DNA of 64,000 nucleotides. It comes from Octopus vulgaris (lineage: Eukaryota). Position 1 is the stretch's first letter. Every line of letters begins with the position of its first letter. The stretch spans positions 58,094,001 to 58,158,000 of the forward strand of contig OX597814.1 of NCBI GenBank assembly GCA_951406725.2. The letters run 5' to 3'. Positions 7,788 to 35,097 of this stretch are shown in pieces. The notes under the pieces are model-generated. The model saw only the letters and a program-made list of their open reading frames with translations, was not told the DNA's origin and searched no databases. Made by a program: the position numbers and the translations under genes.

Positions 7788-9438
7788 CAGTTGCGGCCAA
7801 AAATGTTCAGAACGGCATTGTTTTCGTCAGAAAAGTAGGTATAAGTTTTTTTATCAAAGTTGTTTTATATTCTATAATTTTCACAGACAATAAATACAAT
7901 ATTAATTGTTATTGTCCGAGATTTTGGTGTAATTTGAGAGGATAATACAAAAGTTAGTTAGTGATTTACTGCAATTTAGTGATTTAGTGATTTACTGCAA
8001 AACCCATGGCGGCCAAAATGATCAGAACGGTTGAAAAAATGACAAAATAATCAAAAATGACAGAGAGTACTGGAATTATTTAATATTTAGTGTGAATCCC
8101 TTTAGCTTCAATCACACTCTGACATCTTCGACTGCATGAGAAAATTAAATTTTCAATTTCTTGCTGGGTGATCTTATTCCATTCTTCCTGAAGGGCATTC
8201 CATAATTGCTCGGTTGTTATAGTATTTCTGGCTTTCGAACGTTCTCCCAGAATATTCCACACATTTTCAATAGGATTGAGATCTGGGCTTTGAGCTTGCC
8301 AATCCATAACAATAACCTTTTCAGCCTTGAGGAAGTTCATGACCACCTTAGACTTGTGACATGGGGCATTGCCCTGCATGAATATGGGTGGTCGCTTAGT
8401 TGAATTTCTCAGCACAGGCAAGACATGATCTTTTACAAGTTGTTTATAAACTCCTGCATTTAACTTTCCATGTAATCGCACCAAAGGGCCCAGACCATCT
8501 CCAGATATCATTCCCCAAACCATGACACTTCCTCCACCGAATTTAACACTAGTCTTAAGGCATTTAGGCAACAAATTTTCACCTACTTTTCTACGAACGT
8601 ACCTTTTCCCATCTGAGCCAAATAACATAAACTTAGATTCATCACTGAAATGCACCGTTTGCCATTTTTCTTGAGACCACAACACATGTTCGGTTGCAAA
8701 GATAAGACGACACTTTTTATTCTTGGAGCTGATCAGTGGCTTCACTGCGGGTGCTCTTGCTTGTAGGTCATGTTCAACTAAGCGACGAGACACAGTTTTT
8801 CGAGAGAAAGTTTTCTTCAATACCATGCTCATTTTCCGAGAAACAGCAGCAGCAGTTTTAAATCTGTCCTTTTTAACCAACTTTACCAAAGCACGATCTT
8901 CTCTCTTGGTCATTTTTCGTGACCTACCTGTAAACTTTCTTGCTTCACACGAACCACAATCATCGTAGACCTTAAGAATACTGTGTACAACACTTTTTGA
9001 CTTGTTAACAATCTTTGCAATAGATCCAATACTTAAATTATCCTTCCTTCGAAGCTTAATAATCTCCTGACGAATTGGTAACGGAGTAAGTGGCATTATA
9101 TTAACAAAGTACACTGCAAATATTCTTACTAATGTTTAGTAAACGAACCGTCACGTAAACAAATTCGAAACATTAGAGTTCGCCGGTTAAATATACCAAA
9201 ACTCGGAGTAAAAGCAACTGTTCTGATCATTTTGGCCGCCATGGGTTTTGTAGTAAATCACTAAATCATCCATAAATTTTGTATTATCCTCTCAAATTAC
9301 ACCAAAATCTCAGACAATAACAAATAATATTGTAATTATTGTCTGTGAAAATTATAGAATATAAAACAACTTTGATAAAAACTTATACCTACTTTTCTGA
9401 CGAAAACAATGCCGTTCTGAACATTTTGGCCGCAACTG
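7788..9438 (-). mobile_element. Full-length Tc1-family DNA transposon with long IR/DR terminal repeats
   Basis: TA at 7786-7787 and 9439-9440. TIRs 7788-8033 and 9215-9438 begin cagttgcggccaaaa. Each TIR has outer and inner direct repeats gcggccaaaatg(t/a)tcagaac. Confidence 0.97.
8080..9114 (-). CDS. Tc1-like DD34E transposase, open ORF with the second catalytic Asp replaced by Gly
   Basis: 344-aa ORF with paired-like HTH, FSDESKF, VKFGGGSVMVWG, FMQGNAPCH (normally QDNA) and SPDLNPIENVW; 34 residues between that G and the E. The true start may be the second Met (MPLT). Confidence 0.92.
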   Translation of the reverse strand: MYFVNIMPLTPLPIRQEIIKLRRKDNLSIGSIAKIVNKSKSVVHSILKVYDDCGSCEARKFTGRSRKMTKREDRALVKLVKKDRFKTAAAVSRKMSMVLKKTFSRKTVSRRLVEHDLQARAPAVKPLISSKNKKCRLIFATEHVLWSQEKWQTVHFSDESKFMLFGSDGKRYVRRKVGENLLPKCLKTSVKFGGGSVMVWGMISGDGLGPLVRLHGKLNAGVYKQLVKDHVLPVLRNSTKRPPIFMQGNAPCHKSKVVMNFLKAEKVIVMDWQAQSPDLNPIENVWNILGERSKARNTITTEQLWNALQEEWNKITQQEIENLIFSCSRRCQSVIEAKGIHTKY

Positions 9439-16231: not shown

Positions 16232-18846
16232 GACTGACGTGTTGTCACCTCGGCTCCGAAGGTAATCGTTTATTTTGACTATTTATAGCCCATATTTTGG
16301 GTACATTTTTGTAAATAAGTTGTGTAAGGCACCCAACTTTCGTTTGAGTGATTATGCAAGGGAGGAATTCGCCCCTAGGGGCAGTTTCAACCCTATTTAA
16401 TTTGTGTATTTTTCTTCTCGACATTAAAATATGTCGAGAAATGTTGTTGTAGAACGCTGGTCGCTTTCCTTTATGGACCAGCATTTTCCTAGACTTGAAA
16501 CGCTAGGAGAAAAAAAGAACTTATGCACGCACACACATTCGACAAAGACAAACCTGAGTGACGTGGTAGTGAACGCTACAACCACTTGCGGTAACAGCCC
16601 TGTCAGCACCACCACCACTAACAACAACAACAACGATACTACTACTGCTACCACCACCACCTCCACCACCATTTTATAGATAATTTTAGGCCCATCACTC
16701 TGCTCAACGCAGATTTGAAAATTTTGGCCAAAGTAATAGCCGAGAGGTTGGCGCTTGTCATTGGTAAACTGGTCGACAGGGCGCAAACATGCGCCGTGCC
16801 GAGCAGAGCCATGCAGGACAACCTCCATCTGATGTGCTACATTGTGGACAGGGTAGTTAAGGATCCTGGCATGGGTGGGGCGCTGATCAATTTGGATCAG
16901 TCTAAAGTCTTCGATAGGGTCGAACATCGGTACTTGGCGGCCGTCCTCAGGGCGGCTGGCTTCGGTCCCGTCTTCCGCGGTTGGATCGCTGCCTTGTATA
17001 GCGGCATCCGATCGGTGATTCGGGTGAACGGTCACCTGTCGAAACCGTTTGACATCCCGCGTTCGGTCCGTCAGGGGTGTCCCCTGTCGGCGCTTCTGTA
17101 TGTACTGACTCTCGAGCCGCTACTGCGGAAGCTGGCGACACTGAGGGGCATACCACGGGAACTGGGTTGCGGGACGAGCGTGTCGGCATATGCGGACAAT
17201 GTCACCGTCATGGTGTCGAGCGAAAAACACATCCAGATGCTAGGCGGGATACTAAGAAAAACGAAACGGTGACGGGAGCGAAGATTAACCCGGAAAAGTC
17301 AGTGGGTTTGCTACTCGGCACCTGGAGAAGCAAGCCCGTGCCGTCCGACTGAGGCTCAGTAGTGGGACGCTGGACGGACGGACCGGTTAAATTGCTCGGG
17401 GTCTGGTTCAGTTCGGACCTCCAAATGGATAAGAACTGGGACGAGATCACGAGTAGAGTGGTCGCTCTCAGCCAAACATGAGCCGAGAGAAAGCTGTCTC
17501 TAAAAGGCCGGGCGGAGGTGGCGAACGCGTACATCGCATCCGTCATCGATTACCGCCTGACCGCCGTGCCTTGTCCCGACCCTACCATCACCAAACTGGA
17601 ACGCATACTCTTCCGCTTCCTGTGGAAGGGTGGCGTTCCGATGGTGAGGAAGTCCATTTGCTGTCAACATCCGTTGAATGGAGGACTGGGCATGCCGTGG
17701 TTGATGATGCGCAGGCATACGCTGAGACTGCGACATCTCTGGAACTTCATCGACGACGGTGAACAGGTGTGGGCGCCGTTTGTGAGGCGCCACTTCCCGC
17801 AGCTCGTCTCACTGACCGAACTGCAAACGTGGATCAAGAAGAGACCGAAACTGGGCGATTGGCACCGAGAGTGTCGCCAAGCTCTACAGCAGCTCTGCCG
17901 ACCGGGGTCAAACTTGTGCAACTTACAAACGACTAAAGCGTTCTATAGAGGACTAGTGGAGGGGAGGTCCGACGACACACTCGGGGCAAACCTGGGCGTC
18001 GACGAGAAATTCCTAACCCGCCTTTTCAGGACGACGTTCGGGCCGGGGCCTATGGATAACTCCTAGAAATCCCTGGCTTGGCAGTGCTATCGAGACGCAC
18101 TACCTGTTCGAGAGAAGAGCTGCAGGCACGGTTCGAAAACCATCACCGGACCGACCTGCCCGAGATGCGGTCAGAGTGACGAAACCGTTCTGCATGCACT
18201 CGTGCAGTGTCCAGATATTTCAGAGCTGTGGACCTTCGTCGAACAGCTGTTGTCGCGTGTGGGTCGGGCCCGCCTATCGGCCGAGTCTGTCGTGTATATT
18301 GTTCCACCACCTTCCTTTAAACGGGAAGGGAAAACGGTTTTCGTTACGCTGATGGCTATGGCGAAAGAATGTGTGTGGTGGACGCGTTTGAAAGGACTGC
18401 AAACAAACACCTTCCTCTCTGGTCAGTCTCTCGTCAACTTTTTCAAGTACCACTTGAAAATGAGGATGAGAATAGAGAAGAAGGCTTTGTCGAACGAATG
18501 TTTTAATGAAAAGTGGGTAAAAGTGACAAAAATGGTCAGTATGAAAGACGACACTATTTTAAGCGTAAATCTGTAAGGCGACTTACTCATGTGTTCATTT
18601 TCGAACTGTCTGAGGTGACCTTGGTCTTTTTTGTAGGTATTTCTTTTCAAGGCTACACCTAAACTGTGAACTTTATATATATATATTACTTTTTTATACA
18701 CCATACAACCCACAGATCCCTATTGATCGAACGTTTTTTTTTTTTTTGGTATGTCCCACTCATCCCACCTCGAAAAGAAAAAAACTCTACATTGTATTTC
18801 GTCCATTATTATTCTATGTTTAGCCCTGTGTGGTCACAATAAAAAG

Positions 18847-28311: not shown

Positions 28312-30263
28312 ACTTTGATACTTTGATAGGTTTCGGCCATTATTGGCCCAGGCCATGTCTAACTTAATAGCACCACCTGGTGAAGTCTTTCAAGTCAGAA
28401 TTTGGGCACTATGGCCCACTCAAGTAGAGAGTTATTGTTTACAGAGACATATCCGGGTGTAGGGGGTTTATCCGGGATTTCTTGAAGGAATCTGTCCAAA
28501 GACTTCTTGAACCCTATAGGGTCAGTTTCTGTTTTAATGTGTTTTGGTGTAATGTTAAAGAGAGCGGGGCCAATTGAGGTGAAATAATTGTGCCGTATTG
28601 TTGTTATGAGATGAGAGTGCGATTTTTGTTTTGGGCGGATGGCACGGGGCCCAAGCCTTGGATGTACCTTAAAGGTGATGCCAACATCATTTGGGCAATG
28701 CTGATGGAATATTTTCCACATCATGCAGATGATGTAGCGCTCACGACGACGTTGGAGAGAATAGAGTTTTAGCTTTTCTAGTCGACCCCAATAGTCGAGG
28801 CCTGTCATGCCATCTATCTTTTTTGTGATTGCCCTTTGAGGTGCTTCAACTTTTATGATACCTTGTATTGTGTGGGGAGACCACAGTGGACAACAGTATT
28901 CAAGGTGGGGTCGGGCAAAAGTGGAGAAGAGAAGGATAATGGTGTGGATATCTCTCGACTGGAAAGTTCTGAGAATCCAGGAACACATTCTGCGGGCCAT
29001 GTCAACTTTGGTGTTTATATGAGTGGCCCAGCTTATGTTGTTGTCCACAATTACTCCCAAGTCTCTGATGTTGTTGGACGCCGCGAGAGTTTCACCTGAA
29101 GGAAGGGAGTATGGGAGTTTCAGGGCATCCTCTTTTCCAAAGTGGATTAGCTCAAATTTATCCTCGTTCAGCAGCATATTGTTTTTTTCTGCCCATTGGA
29201 TAACAGCCAGTAGATCTGACTGAAGGCATGTCCGGTCACTCGCCTCATTTATGACCTTCTGTAGCTTGGAGTCATCTGCAAAAATTTTTATGTTGCTGTG
29301 TTTGATGATGTCATTAATGTCATTAATGTAAATGATGAAAAGAAGTGGGCCCAGCACAGTGCCTTGCGGAACGCCACTACTGACTTTGGCTGGGCTTGAT
29401 TTTACCCCTTCAACTACAACATGTTGAGATCTGTCTGTCAGGAAACACTTGATCCATTTCAGTAACTTTCCAGAGACACCAATGTTGGATAGTTTTTTCA
29501 ATAGGATCTTGTGATCGACCCTGTCGAAGGCCTTACTGAGATCAAGGTAGATGACATCGGTGTTGGAGCCCTCTCCCAAAGCTCTCAAAATGTCCTCAAA
29601 GTGATGCAGGAGCTGCGTTAGGCAGTCCCTTCCATTACGGAACCCATGTTGGTTGGAGATCAGCCGTCTGTTGCTTTCCAGAAATTGGGTTATTCGAGAT
29701 CTCACCACCCTCTCAAATACCTTGATGATATGAGAGGTGAGTGAGATCGGACGGTAATTCACTGCAAGGGACTTGTTTCCTTTTTGAAAACTGGGACAAC
29801 AGACTGGGACAGAAGGTTTTTTGGAATATAGCCAGCATCCAGTGAGTTTCTCCACAGATTAGCAAGGGGAGATGCAAGTTGGTGTCGACACACCTTCAGG
29901 ACACAAGCAGGGAACCTATCGGGGCCTACTGCTGAATTGTGTTTTATTTCGTTTATCGCCGCTAACACATCAGGGGCACTAAACGTTATGTCCGATATAG
30001 TGTGTTGGGGGTTGACATCACTGATACAGCCCAGATCGGCCATATCAGGATTGCTGAAAACAGAGCAGTATTGTTTCTGCAGTATCTCGGCCATGGATTT
30101 GGCATTATCTTGGAGAGTGCCAGTTTCGTCAATTAGAGGGCCTACAGTGGAGACAGTGACCCTGCGTTTCCTCGCAAATGAAAAGAACACTTTGGGGTTG
30201 AGTTTGATTTTTTCAATGGCCCACTTCTCCTCAGCTGATCTTTGGTTATTGATGAGGGTCTTC
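28312..30263 (-). mobile_element. 5'-truncated CR1/L2-group LINE inside (TA)n
   Basis: RT ORF, short 3' UTR with stem-loops, terminal (TATCAAAG)x2 on the - strand, and TA-rich tracts on both sides. Confidence 0.9.
28395..30263 (-). pseudogene. LINE ORF2 reverse transcriptase with a single frameshift near 29783
   Basis: NPKVFFSFAR...SAVGPD...VVPVFKK / GNKSLAVNYRPISLTS...QHGFR...YLDLSKAFDRVDH...SGVPQGTVLGPLLF...IFADDSKL...RDLGV...SLQRRRERY...IPDKP; joins ORFs 29759-30385 and 28395-29855. Confidence 0.93.
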
Positions 30264-30801
30264 ATATATATATATATATAAATATAAATATATATATATT
30301 TATATATACAGAGAGAGAGAGAGAGAACGAGAAGAAATGTAAGGGAAATAATGAGGAATATTTTGTTGGCCATAGGAGCATGCACAGTGGTAGTAGCTTT
30401 TGTGAAAGATACTAAACAAAGTGATGCTTAACATAAACGCGTGTGCGTAAAAAACTGACTGGGAAGCGTATATGATTATCTCATTAAAGATATAGGAAAT
30501 ATATTATACAAATACGATCTGTTTTTTCAGTGCCGAAACTTCGTGTTCTTCATTTGGTGGGGAGAAGGAAACTAGCCAAATTATAAAAGTGCCCCTGATG
30601 TTTAAAATGTTGCCTTTCAGCTATCCTTTCAGGACAAGGATTATGTTAGCAAATAATTCTTTGAAAGCAAGCAAAGTGTATGTATGCATGTATGTATATA
30701 TCTATGTGTGTATATGTATATATATATCTATATCTATATCTATTTATTTATACACTGACACACACATAAATATACATGCATATATATATATATGTATATA
30801 C

Positions 30802-30843
<42 letters not shown>

Positions 30844-31088
30844 GCACACACACACATATGTATATACATACATAGATTCATACCCACATACACACATACA
30901 TGTATATGTATGTATATATATATATACATTTAGTAAACAAAAGGAAGGAGGAGGATTTCGATTATATCCGCGTGGTGAATTGAAATTCAAAGTATATGTA
31001 TATAAAATAAAAGAAGGAAAAGGCACTCAGTTTACATAGTTTTAATACACTTCTAAATATATTTTATAAATGAAAATGTATTGTTTTT

Positions 31089-31119
31089 GTTAACCGGTTT
31101 CGCTTTCGCTAATCATGAC
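31089..31119 (-). ncRNA. Minimal type I hammerhead-like motif, variant core AUGAUUA
   Basis: On -: GTC ATGATTA GC-GAAA-GC GAAA CCGG TT AAC, within the Penelope pLTR. Confidence 0.6.
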
Positions 31120-33112
31120 AGTGAAGTTAGTGTAATTTCGAATTGTTTTAAGATTTTAATCCATGAAGTAAAAACATCTAAGGGAAGGTAGTTGGTGATC
31201 CTTATTATTCGGGACAGGGAAGGTAATTGCTCGTTTTGGGGAAGGGGATGAAGAATATACAAAAACTCAAAAAGCTAAAGTAATAAGTAAAATATGTACA
31301 TGTGATCATAAATTAAAATATATATTGAGATCAAAGTTGGTTATGCGTTTCTATTTAGGCGTGTTCTGTATTTTTCTATAAATATATTTTCTTCATTTAA
31401 ACACTTTGTACAGAAATTGCTCCTTTGCACTGGTAAATGGGGAAAACAGTGAAGTTTGGTTGGATATTACCTGCATATTTCTCTGTATGTTCACTCAAAC
31501 GAATCTTTGTGTTCTGTGGGAAACGGATCTGTTCCTTATGTAGTATGGTTCTCTAAGTGTCATATTTGCATGTCCTATATAGTTATCACCCCAACCTGAA
31601 TTTAGATTCTCGGAAGCACAAGTGAAGTTGATTTTCATTGTGAACCTTTCTCCTTGTTTGAATGGGAAATCCGAGCCTTCCAATAGGTTGGGGTATATTG
31701 CACAGTTTGAACGTCCACAATGTTTAACCATTGATTTCGTAGTTGCTGTGTAAATTTCGCATTTGTCAGAAGTATTTTCAGCGATTTGTGTTGCTTTTTG
31801 CATTTGATCAATTGATGTGTTTTCAGAATGCTGTTCATTTTTGAATCTCCTGTGAGCATAGGTAGATTTTGTACAATAATGTTATATGCCTCGTTGTTTC
31901 TAGGGCTGTGAGTTGATATATATGATAGTGTTTTGAGATGAGGCGTGGTATTACCATTTGTTTCCCTTGGTGTTTTAATGCCTAATTTCTTGGCACGCTT
32001 AATTCCATTGTCTACTGATGAGGATAAGGGTGGATATTGTCTTTCGGTTAGAATTCTGCTGAGACCTTGAAGACAGAGGTTCTGAGTATTTCCATCAGAC
32101 ACTATTGTAAAAATTCGTTTTGCTAAATTAAAGGACATATTTCTTTTGATGTGTTACGGGTGGCATGAGTTAAACAGATGTTGCTTCGAGTCCGTTGGCT
32201 TATGATAAATGTCAGTTTCAATTTGGTTGTTGACTTTTTTTATCATAATATCTAAGAAAGGGAACTACTCTTTGCTATATTCCATTGTAAATTGAATGTT
32301 GGGATTCCTATTATTTAGTATTGATTTAAATTCCAAAAGTTTATCAATGGTCTCCTTCCAAATGATAAAGCAGTCATCCAGATATCTTTTACAGTTCTCT
32401 GTCATATAATGACGAAATGGATGTCCATATTTTTGCAGTGACATTTCACATATGGTGAATTCGAAGTATCCCATTTTAGGTTCGCAAGAACAGGGACTGC
32501 TTTCCTTCCCATTGCTATTCCGCATTTTTGATGATAGCAAATGTCATCAAATAGGGAATAATTGTTCTCAAGTATAAATTTTAGAGTTTCAATAATAAAG
32601 ACTGACCTGGTTTATGCATTCTGGAAGTTCTTCGGGGTACTTTTCCAGCCACAGTGCAGAAGCTACAGATCCGTTTCCCACAGTACACACAAATTCCTTT
32701 GTGTGAACACATAGAGAGATAAGCAGGTAATATCCAACCAAACTTCACAATTTTCCTCATGTACTAGTGCACAAAATAACTTCTGTACATGAACGTTTAC
32801 ATAAGAAATATTTATCGAATAATACAGAACACGCCTAACTATGAACGTATGACCAACTTTGATCTCAGGATATATTCGTATTCATGATTACATACCCATC
32901 ACTGTACATATTTCTTCTCACTACCTTAGCTTTTGTGATTTTGTATATTTATTTATGCCCTCCCCAGAATATTTCCTTATCCCGAATAATGAAGACCACC
33001 AATTACATTCCTTCAGATGTTTCTACTTGTTGATTCATTCACAAACCCACAAACTTCCACACACATGGGCTAACATCTTGCTAAGAAAATACAAAACTAC
33101 AATAACTTCAAT

Positions 33113-33143
33113 GTCATGATTAGCGAAAGCGAAACAGATCGAC
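33113..33143 (+). ncRNA. Minimal type I hammerhead-like motif, variant core AUGAUUA
   Basis: GTC ATGATTA GC-GAAA-GC GAAA CAGA TC GAC; stem I GTC/GAC; in the inverted pLTR copy. Confidence 0.6.
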
Positions 33144-33228
33144 TAAAACTATACTCTTTCACTTATAAGATACATTAAAAAATATATATCAAAACTATAT
33201 AAACTGTGCGCATTTTCCTTCTTTTTTA

Positions 33229-33276
<48 letters not shown>

Positions 33277-33308
33277 TGCATACATAAAGCACACACACAC
33301 ACATATAT

Positions 33309-33347
<39 letters not shown>

Positions 33348-34362
33348 TACATACACACATATGTATATATATATATCATCAGCCATGTGCTCTCCTTGTG
33401 CTCAAGGCATGCGTTATCGAAACTCTCCACTCACCTCTGTATTCTGCTGCATGCATACATTCAGCCATACCTTTTTGGCCGGTCCATTATATAATATCAT
33501 CAGACCAGAAACTTATTTGACTTATTTTGACCTCTTGCTCTCTTCCCTAATGTTGTAATGATCTTGTGTTCGATATTTAATACCATTAATGCATAGCAGA
33601 TAAACATCAACTAAATATAAAACATTTAAATTTGAATCTGTCAAATTATTTGAAACCACATATTATCTTTGCACATATATGAATTTTGTATGAACAATTT
33701 CAGTAACTATAGTTTTACAGTCTCTGCTGTGATCGATATATATGTGAATGTTACTATATTTATGTTTGCGTTAAGGTGTGAGAAAAAAAGGACAGTGAGA
33801 TATTGAGAAGAAGGGAGAGTGCAAGAGAGGTTAAAAGGAGACTCAAATAGAAAGTTACTAGTAACATAAAGGAGCCTCACACTAGCACTTCTATTCTGCT
33901 ACCACTTTCTTATAAATATCAGCCTTTCAGCATTGTTTTTCTTGTGCCGTGTCCATATTACTTCTACGAACTCTTGAACTTGGAAAGTTATTCTTCAGAC
34001 TTACATGCATTATTCAGGCAAGACGTATTTTGTTTCTAACATCTTTGTTTGTAACATCCACGCTAAAAAATATGGGTCAAAAGAGGCACACGCGCGCACA
34101 CACACACACAAGATACCTACTGTGCAAAGTACAGTGATACTCTACAACTTCGGCACACATTTCCACCTCCCACTTGTAGCTTAGAGATACAACCCATCAA
34201 TCAACTTTTATACTCAAACTATTGATTACATTTCCTCGAGTGTATAACCTTTCTATCCTCGGCTTTATTTGATAATCGAAAAAGTTTATGATATATTATT
34301 CGGACATATAAAGATGACAGCATCTCAGTGCTAATCATGTTTCTATGTTATTTCTTTAACAG

Positions 34363-34378
34363 GTGCTTTCTTCACGAG
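34363..34378 (+). other. Candidate 16-nt micro-exon
   Basis: Branch-like gctaat at 34330, acceptor tttctttaacag| and donor gag|gtattt. Confidence 0.25.
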
Positions 34379-35097
34379 GTATTTGTACGCCTATTCGCTC
34401 ACTTACGAGCACAAGGTCAAGGGATATATTATTTTTTTTGTGGAAACATCTGTGTGTGTGTTGGTTGTTGTGATGTTGTGTTACTGTTGTTGAACATATT
34501 ATAGTCCTTATTTTACCCTCATAATTATAGTTATTACTGTTGTTTCTTCTGCTACAAATTGATGTACAAATTTTCTTATCCGCATATCGTTTCACTGACG
34601 TCAATGTAGCAGTGGTAGTAGCTGTTTTGACTGTGACGTCAATAATTTTAGTTGCTATGACGGCAGTGGTGGTTGCTGTTACTTTGATGCTGTTGTTGTC
34701 CTTTTTAAATATTATGGAATCACTACCGCTTTCTCCCTTTGAATTTCATCTTTATTATATCTTACTAAAATCAAATAAAATTAAATGAAACAAAAACAAA
34801 ACAATCATTATGTCATCGTTGAATTCGAGACTTTTATATTTATAATTGAAATTATATATTTGTTAAAAGCGACGACAGTTCAACGACATATCTTGCGGGT
34901 CAATATTTCTACAAGTGTGTCAAAGAAAGAATAAGAATAAATGAAATAAGTAAATAAATAGATAAATGAATCAATCACTTTAAGGTATTTTATTATTGCA
35001 AAAACAACAAATGATTGCTGAAACTTAGGGAGATCCAGCGGTTTGAGTTGATCTGAGGAGACGATGACAATAATAACAACGATCATAATTATAATAC

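What the first reader, a model, noticed from the sequence alone, without database searches (positions are those of the whole stretch)
31089..33143. Penelope hammerhead pair with an apparent compensatory A3-U8 catalytic core
Seen: both inverted pLTR copies, otherwise visibly diverged, keep GTC-ATGATTA-GC(GAAA)GC-GAAA-C. One has a palindromic stem III (CCGG) and the other an intact stem I (GTC/GAC) with a UC site. Established: Penelope-like elements carry minimal type I hammerheads that probably work as dimers through the stem III palindrome, and the core C3-U4-G5-A6-N7-G8-A9 forms a C3-G8 Watson-Crick pair. Inference: AUGAUUA changes positions 3 and 8 together to A-U. That keeps the pair, so it suggests covariation rather than decay, and searches fixed on CUGANGA would miss it.
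Basis: partly seen in the sequence, partly recalled or inferred. Interest (0 to 1): 0.8.

Follow-up and report, generated by a model that had tools for sequence, protein, structure and literature searches.

The report
A3-U8 hammerhead core in Penelope retrotransposons
A jumping-gene family with about a thousand copies in this animal genome carries a hammerhead-shaped RNA whose core C-G pair is replaced by A-U throughout the family, a natural variant I could not find in print; intact family members likely still cut themselves (untested), while the two copies in this window are each broken.

Summary
Observation confirmed. The motif lies in the 3' pseudo-LTRs of a decayed Penelope-like element (RT, CX4CXXC linker, GIY-YIG; inverted 5'-truncated arm; TA-repeat site). 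A3-U8 is the family state, not private: 168 exact copies (control 0); 1,197 looser matches (control 27); 92 of 100 listed A3-U8 with positions 3 and 8 left free. Across subfamilies N7, loop II and flanks change and helix I swaps pairs, while the core stays. Two related families here use U3-A8 (one with identical intact ORFs), two distant relatives C3-G8; G3-C8 is at background. So the 3-8 pair covaries between families, not within this one. Correction: single copies decay neutrally (core 9.0% vs flank 10.4%); the window's arms are both broken and on opposite strands, so they are no working pair. Natural U3-A8 is published; I found no natural A3-U8 in print (three key papers not readable); this scan noted one phage copy before. 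Cleavage untested; a published mutational scan found the A:U swap poorly active in another hammerhead. Verdict: new variant of a known kind.

The parts
30930..32663 (-). Main arm: 5'-truncated, frameshifted Penelope-like element (RT C-terminal part, linker, GIY-YIG, 3' pLTR, tail)
   Evidence: tblastn of P0001 aa 35-479 at 52-68% on L180 (window = L180 + 30649); six-frame read shows YLDD and linker; 3' end aligned to natural copy L244
31344..32663 (-). Broken RT + endonuclease ORF remnant (several stops and frameshifts)
   Evidence: best other genomic copy of the RT part is 86% identical
31089..31119 (-). Hammerhead copy 1: GTC, core A3-U4-G5-A6-U7-U8-A9 (31116-31110), helix II GC-GAAA-GC, GAAA, CCGG palindrome (31097-31094), U16.1-U17; helix I broken (C.A)
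30930..30992 (-). Tail (extension) present only on this arm, approximate ends
   Evidence: aligns with the tail of natural copy L244; absent from the right arm
32648..33240 (+). Inverted, shorter 5'-truncated arm (end of GIY-YIG + 3' pLTR)
33113..33143 (+). Hammerhead copy 2: helix I GTC/GAC, core A3...U8 (33116-33122), helix II, GAAA, helix III broken (CAGA), predicted site after C17 at 33140
30680..30929 (.). TA-rich microsatellite, left flank (approximate)
33225..33375 (.). TA/CA microsatellite, right flank (approximate)

Best explanation
The motif is the minimal type I hammerhead fold at the 3' end of an abundant Penelope-like retrotransposon family in which the core 3-8 pair is A-U in nearly every copy, and intact members likely cleave their own RNA after C17 as dimers, probably slowly or with help from the element's protein. 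Shown: A3-U8 is the family state over at least two families and several subfamilies; N7, loop II and flanks vary while the core stays; helix I swaps pairs; related families carry U3-A8 or C3-G8. Predicted: two copies on one tandem transcript pair through ACCGGU and form two active sites. Inferred from the known mechanism: G12 acts as base and the 2'-OH of U8, held by the A3-U8 pair, takes the place of that of G8. Inferred from the tree, not settled: C3-G8 to U3-A8 to A3-U8. The two copies in the window are dead relics of one inverted insertion.
For: Family state: 168 exact matches, control 0; 752 matches with 3, 7, 8 and loop II free, control 0, and 92 of the 100 listed are A3-U8, 5 differ at 3 only, 3 at 8 only, 0 at both (counted by eye); copies not picked by a core pattern: A3 25 of 27, U8 23 of 26. 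Older family with a different 3' UTR: 11 of 16 readable copies A3-U8. Helix I pair 3 is G-C in 60 and A-U in 51 of 129 distinct copies, 18 other; pair 4 U-A 105, A-U 8. Oldest versus youngest subfamily: 17 of 62 flank columns, 3 of 5 free positions and 0 of 20 constrained positions differ (one-sided p=0.005). U3-A8 pattern 1,817 matches, control 10; sister family 50-56% identical in the endonuclease, same 2-bp helix II and CCGG; a third family with identical 784-aa ORFs has U3-A8 in 29 of 30 loci fetched, no match in 1. Distant relatives L260, L261 have CUGANGA. The hammerhead dimer is the minimum-energy homodimer for natural copy L041 (-15.3 kcal/mol) and lies 1.9 and 2.5 kcal above it for L022 and L108. 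In a PLE hammerhead single 3 or 8 mutants are dead, the swapped pair partly rescues, and cleavage needs the element's protein (PMC11167929, passages).
Against: No cleavage data. In a full double-mutant scan of a type III hammerhead only the G:C swap rescued; all other doubles in this motif, thus A:U too, were low (PMC9901934, passages); that scan also leaves U:A low although natural U3-A8 occurs. Positions 3 and 8 never vary together inside the family, so the pair is inferred from three or four lineage-level events only. Most subfamilies were collected with patterns that fix the core, which inflates the 0 of 20. The 3' side of the pair-3 swap arose by a deletion, and the pair-5 change to G-C passed through an A.C state that itself amplified (A.C 6, G-C 2 distinct contexts). 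Helix II is only 2 bp. For the one oldest-family copy folded (L223, helix II broken) the hammerhead dimer was far from the minimum (-8.9 against -22.0). The tree order is preferred (SH-aLRT 98.6) but a single U3-A8 clade is not rejected (AU p=0.175). No intact ORF of the A3-U8 family was found in the loci fetched. Hammerhead mutants did not reduce insertion in vitro in the anole PLE.
Confidence: 0.65

Rival explanations
1. The fold is kept by selection but no longer cuts at a useful rate: it serves as a dimerisation or protein-binding element of the retrotransposon RNA, and A3-U8 is a weakened or silent core.
For: A:U swap low in a double-mutant scan; PLE hammerheads are slow even as dimers; cleavage not needed for insertion in vitro; A3-U8 full folds in phage contigs are at control level, 4 of 120 against 4 of 120, versus 78 of 129 for C3-G8.
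Against: All catalytic-core letters and the NUH site are kept across families, and each lineage-level change at 3/8 restores a Watson-Crick pair, which is needed for the active conformation.
Confidence: 0.25
2. A3-U8 is a dead core that hitch-hiked: two chance changes in a founder were copied by a family that does not need its ribozyme.
For: Single copies decay neutrally; Naiad PLEs spread without canonical hammerheads; pattern-based sampling favours conserved cores; AT-rich pLTR favours A/T.
Against: Core unchanged across families with unrelated 3' UTRs and across subfamilies that differ at 17 of 62 flank columns; helix I compensations; no subfamily with a mismatched 3-8 state was seen.
Confidence: 0.07
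3. The two arms in this window work together as a ribozyme pair under selection at this locus.
For: Both keep the 20-mer exactly while flanks differ by 9 of 70 and 11 of 73 letters from the subfamily columns.
Against: Opposite strands; one lacks helix I, the other helix III; predicted dimers unstable or without helix I; about 2% chance of two clean 20-mers at 9% decay, after the fact and among about a thousand copies.
Confidence: 0.03

Closest known systems
Minimal type I hammerheads of metazoan Penelope-like elements, including the U3-A8 families of Schistosoma Cercyon (Cervera and De la Pena 2014, PMC4209133)
   Same: Position in the 3' pLTR, short helix I, G10.1-C11.1, GAAA, NUH, palindromic helix III implying dimers, many truncated copies, opposite-strand pairs, a swapped 3-8 pair
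   Different: A3-U8 (purine at 3, pyrimidine at 8) instead of C3-G8 or U3-A8; helix II only 2 bp with no extra base after A9. No AUGANUA row in their figure S3 text.
Natural core variants of Perreault et al. 2011 (PMC3088659)
   Same: Natural covariation of the 3-8 pair; 2-bp helix II occurs; weak helix III with dimers in repeats
   Different: Only U3-A8 named in the passages read; mostly prokaryotic single motifs
EN+ PLEs with CX2-5CXXC linker (Neptune/Nematis; Craig et al. 2021, PMC8557442)
   Same: RT then linker then GIY-YIG, inverted 5'-truncated copy, one-sided tail, TA-repeat sites
   Different: Neptune versus Nematis not resolved (no reference set); core would escape their '^cuganga' search
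Anole Poseidon hammerhead (PMC11167929)
   Same: PLE hammerhead whose 3-8 pair was tested by swap
   Different: Canonical C3-G8; engineered G3-C8, the one swap absent from this genome (13 matches against 20 control)

Membership tests
Minimal type I hammerhead of PLEs | Literal core CUGANGA (C3, G8) | tested here: not met
   A3 and U8 in 92 of 100 listed; 0 C3-G8 among 6 double changes. So not a member of the canonical-core set; filed as a variant.
Minimal type I hammerhead of PLEs | Watson-Crick pair possible between 3 and 8 | tested here: met
   A-U here, U-A in two related families, C-G in two distant relatives
Minimal type I hammerhead of PLEs | U4 G5 A6 A9, G12 A13 A14 A15.1, U16.1, H17, G10.1-C11.1 | tested here: met
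   Commonest letter at each position in 30 unpicked copies
Minimal type I hammerhead of PLEs | Helix I closes the motif | tested here: met
   4-6 bp in intact copies, with pair swaps; broken in the window's left arm
Minimal type I hammerhead of PLEs | Palindromic helix III allowing a dimer | tested here: met
   ACCGGU; dimer at or within 2.5 kcal of the minimum for 3 of 3 intact copies folded; broken in the window's right arm
Minimal type I hammerhead of PLEs | Located in the pLTR of a PLE | tested here: met
   About 230-270 bases behind the ORF end in the window and in many loci
Minimal type I hammerhead of PLEs | Site-specific self-cleavage | not testable with these tools
   No assay
Rfam hammerhead models | Match to a hammerhead covariance model | tested here: not met
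   No hammerhead hit at E up to 10 in window 29000-35000 or in intact copy L108
EN+ Penelope-like element, Neptune/Nematis type | RT followed by C-terminal GIY-YIG in one ORF | tested here: met
   P0001 (PF00078, PF26215) covers the arm; its relatives carry PF01541. Direct Pfam scan of the endonuclease piece was weak: GIY-YIG E=0.037 for L141, none for L116
EN+ Penelope-like element, Neptune/Nematis type | CX2-5CXXC linker and CCHH residues | tested here: met
   CGRPNCGTC and later C, C, H, H in P0001 and L244; read by eye
EN+ Penelope-like element, Neptune/Nematis type | Inverted 5'-truncated copy, one-sided tail, microsatellite site | tested here: met
   features as described in PMC8557442
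EN+ Penelope-like element, Neptune/Nematis type | RT tree placement among named clades | not tested
   No named reference elements in the trees

The most novel reading that the evidence does not exclude
The first natural hammerhead lineage fixed for a purine-3/pyrimidine-8 core: an active A3-U8 ribozyme, reached by two transversions from U3-A8, kept through several waves of retrotransposition and made workable by dimer context or by the element's protein; such cores are invisible to standard searches, so some PLEs called hammerhead-less may carry them.
Probability: 0.45. Interest if true: 0.6.

Novelty: new variant of a known kind. Interest (0 to 1): 0.45.

Why it matters
It widens the natural sequence space of the best-studied ribozyme core with a family-level case, not a single sequence. 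One genome offers a natural series (C3-G8, U3-A8, A3-U8) in related elements, one of them apparently still amplifying, which makes two open questions testable: what lets a hammerhead tolerate a swapped 3-8 pair, and whether PLE hammerheads must cleave at all. It also shows that CUGANGA descriptors undercount ribozymes: in this genome the A3-U8 and U3-A8 patterns gave 1,197 and 1,817 matches, the C3-G8 pattern 569 against 293 control (patterns differ in gap and one letter, so only roughly comparable). The class, location and the 3-8 covariation itself are known, so the advance is modest.

Tried and rejected
Rfam: no hammerhead hit. L132 first looked like a U3-A8 sister family; its relatives are mostly A3-U8, so it is a decayed copy of the older family. 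The four G8 copies fetched are A3-G8 (3) or G3-G8 (1), not C3-G8. G3-C8: 13 matches against 20 control. Metagenome scan: 1 match, inside a bacterial coding region, taken as chance. No PLE ORF found near any of the 30 C3-G8 loci from this genome, so in-genome C3-G8 outgroups are lacking. Viral contigs: no protein relatives; A3-U8 full folds at control level (only helix II starting GC, 120-129 loci of an estimated 440, 1,400 and 3,300). Sequencing runs: no RNA holder listed. Contigs of 4 runs with 4 organism labels cover the motif; no difference at positions 3 or 8 among the 40 rows shown, 66 rows hidden, contigs cannot show RNA ends: not used as evidence. First IQ-TREE run timed out, replaced by FastTree. 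Subfamily labels were too loose and were dropped; pooled counts used. Literature searches for A3-U8, A3U8, AUGANUA, 'positions 3 and 8' with hammerhead gave 0 papers; G8U/C3A and octopus searches gave nothing relevant; two searches returned only known papers. Przybilski and Hammann 2007, Lunse 2017 and Hammann 2012 are not held.

Full report
Observation. The 20-mer stands at 31097-31116 (-) and 33116-33135 (+), against 0.01 expected. The two copies lie in arms of an inverted repeat (72.6% with gaps). The left copy keeps the CCGG palindrome but its helix I starts with C.A; the right copy keeps GTC/GAC and the UC site but reads CAGA in helix III. Rfam has no hammerhead hit here or in an intact copy.

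The element. The minus-strand arm (about 30930-32663) is a 5'-truncated, frameshifted Penelope-like element. A natural 479-aa relative (P0001) with RT motifs, a CX4CXXC linker and a GIY-YIG-like end matches it over residues 35-479 at 52-68%. The plus-strand arm (32648-33240) is a shorter inverted copy; only the left arm has the tail, and TA repeats flank both ends. This is the layout described for linker-bearing EN+ PLEs (PMC8557442, passages). Neptune versus Nematis was not tested. The best other copy of the RT part is 86% identical, so the insertion is old. The host looks like an octopod mollusc (inference from genome size, repeats and named protein neighbours).

A3-U8 is the family state. 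The genome holds 168 exact matches, control 0, and 1,197 matches to the looser A3-U8 pattern, control 27. With positions 3, 7, 8 and loop II free there are 752 matches, control 0; of the 100 listed, 92 are A3-U8, 5 differ at 3 only, 3 at 8 only, none at both (counted by eye). Asking for change at both gave 6 matches genome-wide: 5 U3-A8, 1 U3.C8, no C3-G8. In 30 copies not picked by a core pattern (3-6 without letters at a given column) A3 stood in 25 of 27 and U8 in 23 of 26. An older family with a different 3' UTR has A3-U8 in 11 of 16 readable copies, U3.U8 in 3, A3.C8 in 1, U3-A8 in 1 (3 further rows belonged to other families).

Selection is seen between lineages, not in single copies. 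Unpicked copies differ from their subfamily columns at 44 of 488 constrained sites and 176 of 1697 flank sites (p=0.44): neutral decay. The clean 20-mers in the window are therefore no sign of function at this locus. Between the oldest and youngest of five flank-defined subfamilies, 17 of 62 flank columns, 3 of 5 free positions and 0 of 20 constrained positions differ (p=0.005); this is inflated by core-fixing patterns. Helix I changes in step: over 129 distinct copies pair 3 is G-C in 60 and A-U in 51, pair 4 U-A in 105 and A-U in 8, pair 5 A.A 58, A-U 42, U-A 10, A.C 6, G-C 2. The 3' side of the pair-3 swap came with a deletion, and the G-C at pair 5 passed through an A.C state that amplified. 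41 of the 129 copies are fully intact (mostly pattern-picked).

The 3-8 pair across families. A U3-A8 pattern gives 1,817 matches, control 10. Most listed belong to a young PLE family 50-56% identical in the endonuclease, with the same 2-bp helix II and CCGG (801-aa frame in L259). A third family with identical 784-aa ORFs also has U3-A8, in 29 of 30 loci fetched. Two distant relatives from genome bins (38-42% identity) have CUGANGA. G3-C8 is at background. In the endonuclease tree (72 rows, FastTree) the A3-U8 copies form one clade, support 0.91. In the RT+EN tree (23 rows; hammerhead state unknown for the 7 database proteins and for L181, L187, L213, L221) that clade has SH-aLRT 89 and is sister to the first U3-A8 family, 98.6, with the second outside. 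Parsimony gives C3-G8, then U3-A8, then A3-U8, but one U3-A8 clade is not rejected (AU p=0.175).

Folding. For intact natural copies the two-site hammerhead dimer is the minimum-energy homodimer (L041) or within 1.9-2.5 kcal (L022, L108); the same holds for the U3-A8 copy L139; the damaged oldest-family copy L223 is far off. The window's arms fail: no helix I on the left, +3.0 kcal on the right, and they lie on opposite strands.

Mechanism. From the established mechanism (PMC6155905, passages) G12 is the base and the 2'-OH at position 8 the acid, placed by the 3-8 pair. A3-U8 keeps the pair, so cleavage after C17 in a tandem transcript is the likeliest function (0.65). In the anole PLE single 3 or 8 mutants are dead, the G3-C8 pair partly rescues, cleavage needs the protein, and insertion in vitro does not need cleavage (PMC11167929, passages). 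Against: a full double-mutant scan of a type III hammerhead found rescue only by the G:C swap (PMC9901934, passages; supplements listed, not read). I recall, without having read it here, that Przybilski and Hammann 2007 found all Watson-Crick pairs cleavage-competent depending on context; Perreault 2011 cites it for activity of covarying pairs. A kept but weak or silent fold is the main rival (0.25).

Novelty. Natural U3-A8 is published for prokaryotes (PMC3088659, passages) and for Schistosoma PLEs (PMC4209133, main text parts 1-2 of 4); the text of its figure S3 lists C3-G8, two U3-A8 and one U3.G8 row and no A3-U8 (supplement parts 1-2 of 3). Searches for A3-U8, A3U8, AUGANUA and 'positions 3 and 8' found nothing. 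Lunse 2017, Przybilski 2007 and Hammann 2012 could not be read, and repeat libraries were not available, so prior mention is possible. Also seen: PMC3884650 and PMC6765202 (passages) and a 2026 retrozyme preprint (part 1 of 5). This scan noted one A3-U8 copy in a phage array before (e1-3482507, unchecked); my phage sample shows A3-U8 full folds in 4 of 120 loci, equal to a non-pairing control (4 of 120), against 78 of 129 for C3-G8, so the variant is rare there.

Verdict. A real, family-level core variant of a known ribozyme in a known kind of retrotransposon, with good comparative support and no functional proof; the locus itself is a dead copy. New variant of a known kind, interest 0.45.

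Noticed in passing
G000 C6:52231154-52233388 and L263-L292: Apparently active PLE family: at least 58 of 60 listed matches without stops, many 784-aa ORFs identical, often in tandem; hammerhead with U3-A8, 4-bp helix II and a UA site.
   Followed up: partly
L075-L081, L085, L086, L100, L144, L147, L149, L156: Tandem repeat of about 358 bases (retrozyme-like) whose hammerhead occurs with C3-G8 in some subfamilies and U3-A8 in others: direct 3-8 covariation inside one repeat family.
   Followed up: partly
L138, L141, L145, L160 and others: Young subfamilies of the U3-A8 sister family lack the A after C17, so the first helix I position is U.U or shifted; effect on cleavage unknown.
   Followed up: no
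L210, L218, L227, L238: 4 of 16 copies of the oldest A3-U8 family have U3 (three U3.U8, one U3-A8); may be query bias or a trace of an intermediate state.
   Followed up: partly
window 33113-33120: A3 creates a second palindrome (UCAUGA) across helix I and the core; in the window's subfamily it gives a competing dimer 1.9 kcal more stable than the hammerhead dimer (L022).
   Followed up: partly
L133, L136: Further U3-A8 motif with 2-bp helix II and shared flanks, no PLE ORF seen upstream.
   Followed up: no
L241; L072-L074, L082-L084, L088-L099: Several dispersed C3-G8 hammerhead families, some as inverted pairs, with no match to the PLE protein used.
   Followed up: partly
L260, L261; P0028, P0030: PLE sequences filed in bacterial genome bins, likely host contamination.
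   Followed up: no
window 8080-9135 (-): 351-aa open frame resembling a Tc1/mariner transposase (read by eye).
   Followed up: no
window 28395-30427 (-); 16622-18066 (+): LINE-type reverse transcriptase remnants; the first lies about 500 bases from the PLE.
   Followed up: no
L255: 7.9-kb tandem duplication holding a caspase-like open frame of 293 aa and one A3-U8 copy per unit.
   Followed up: no
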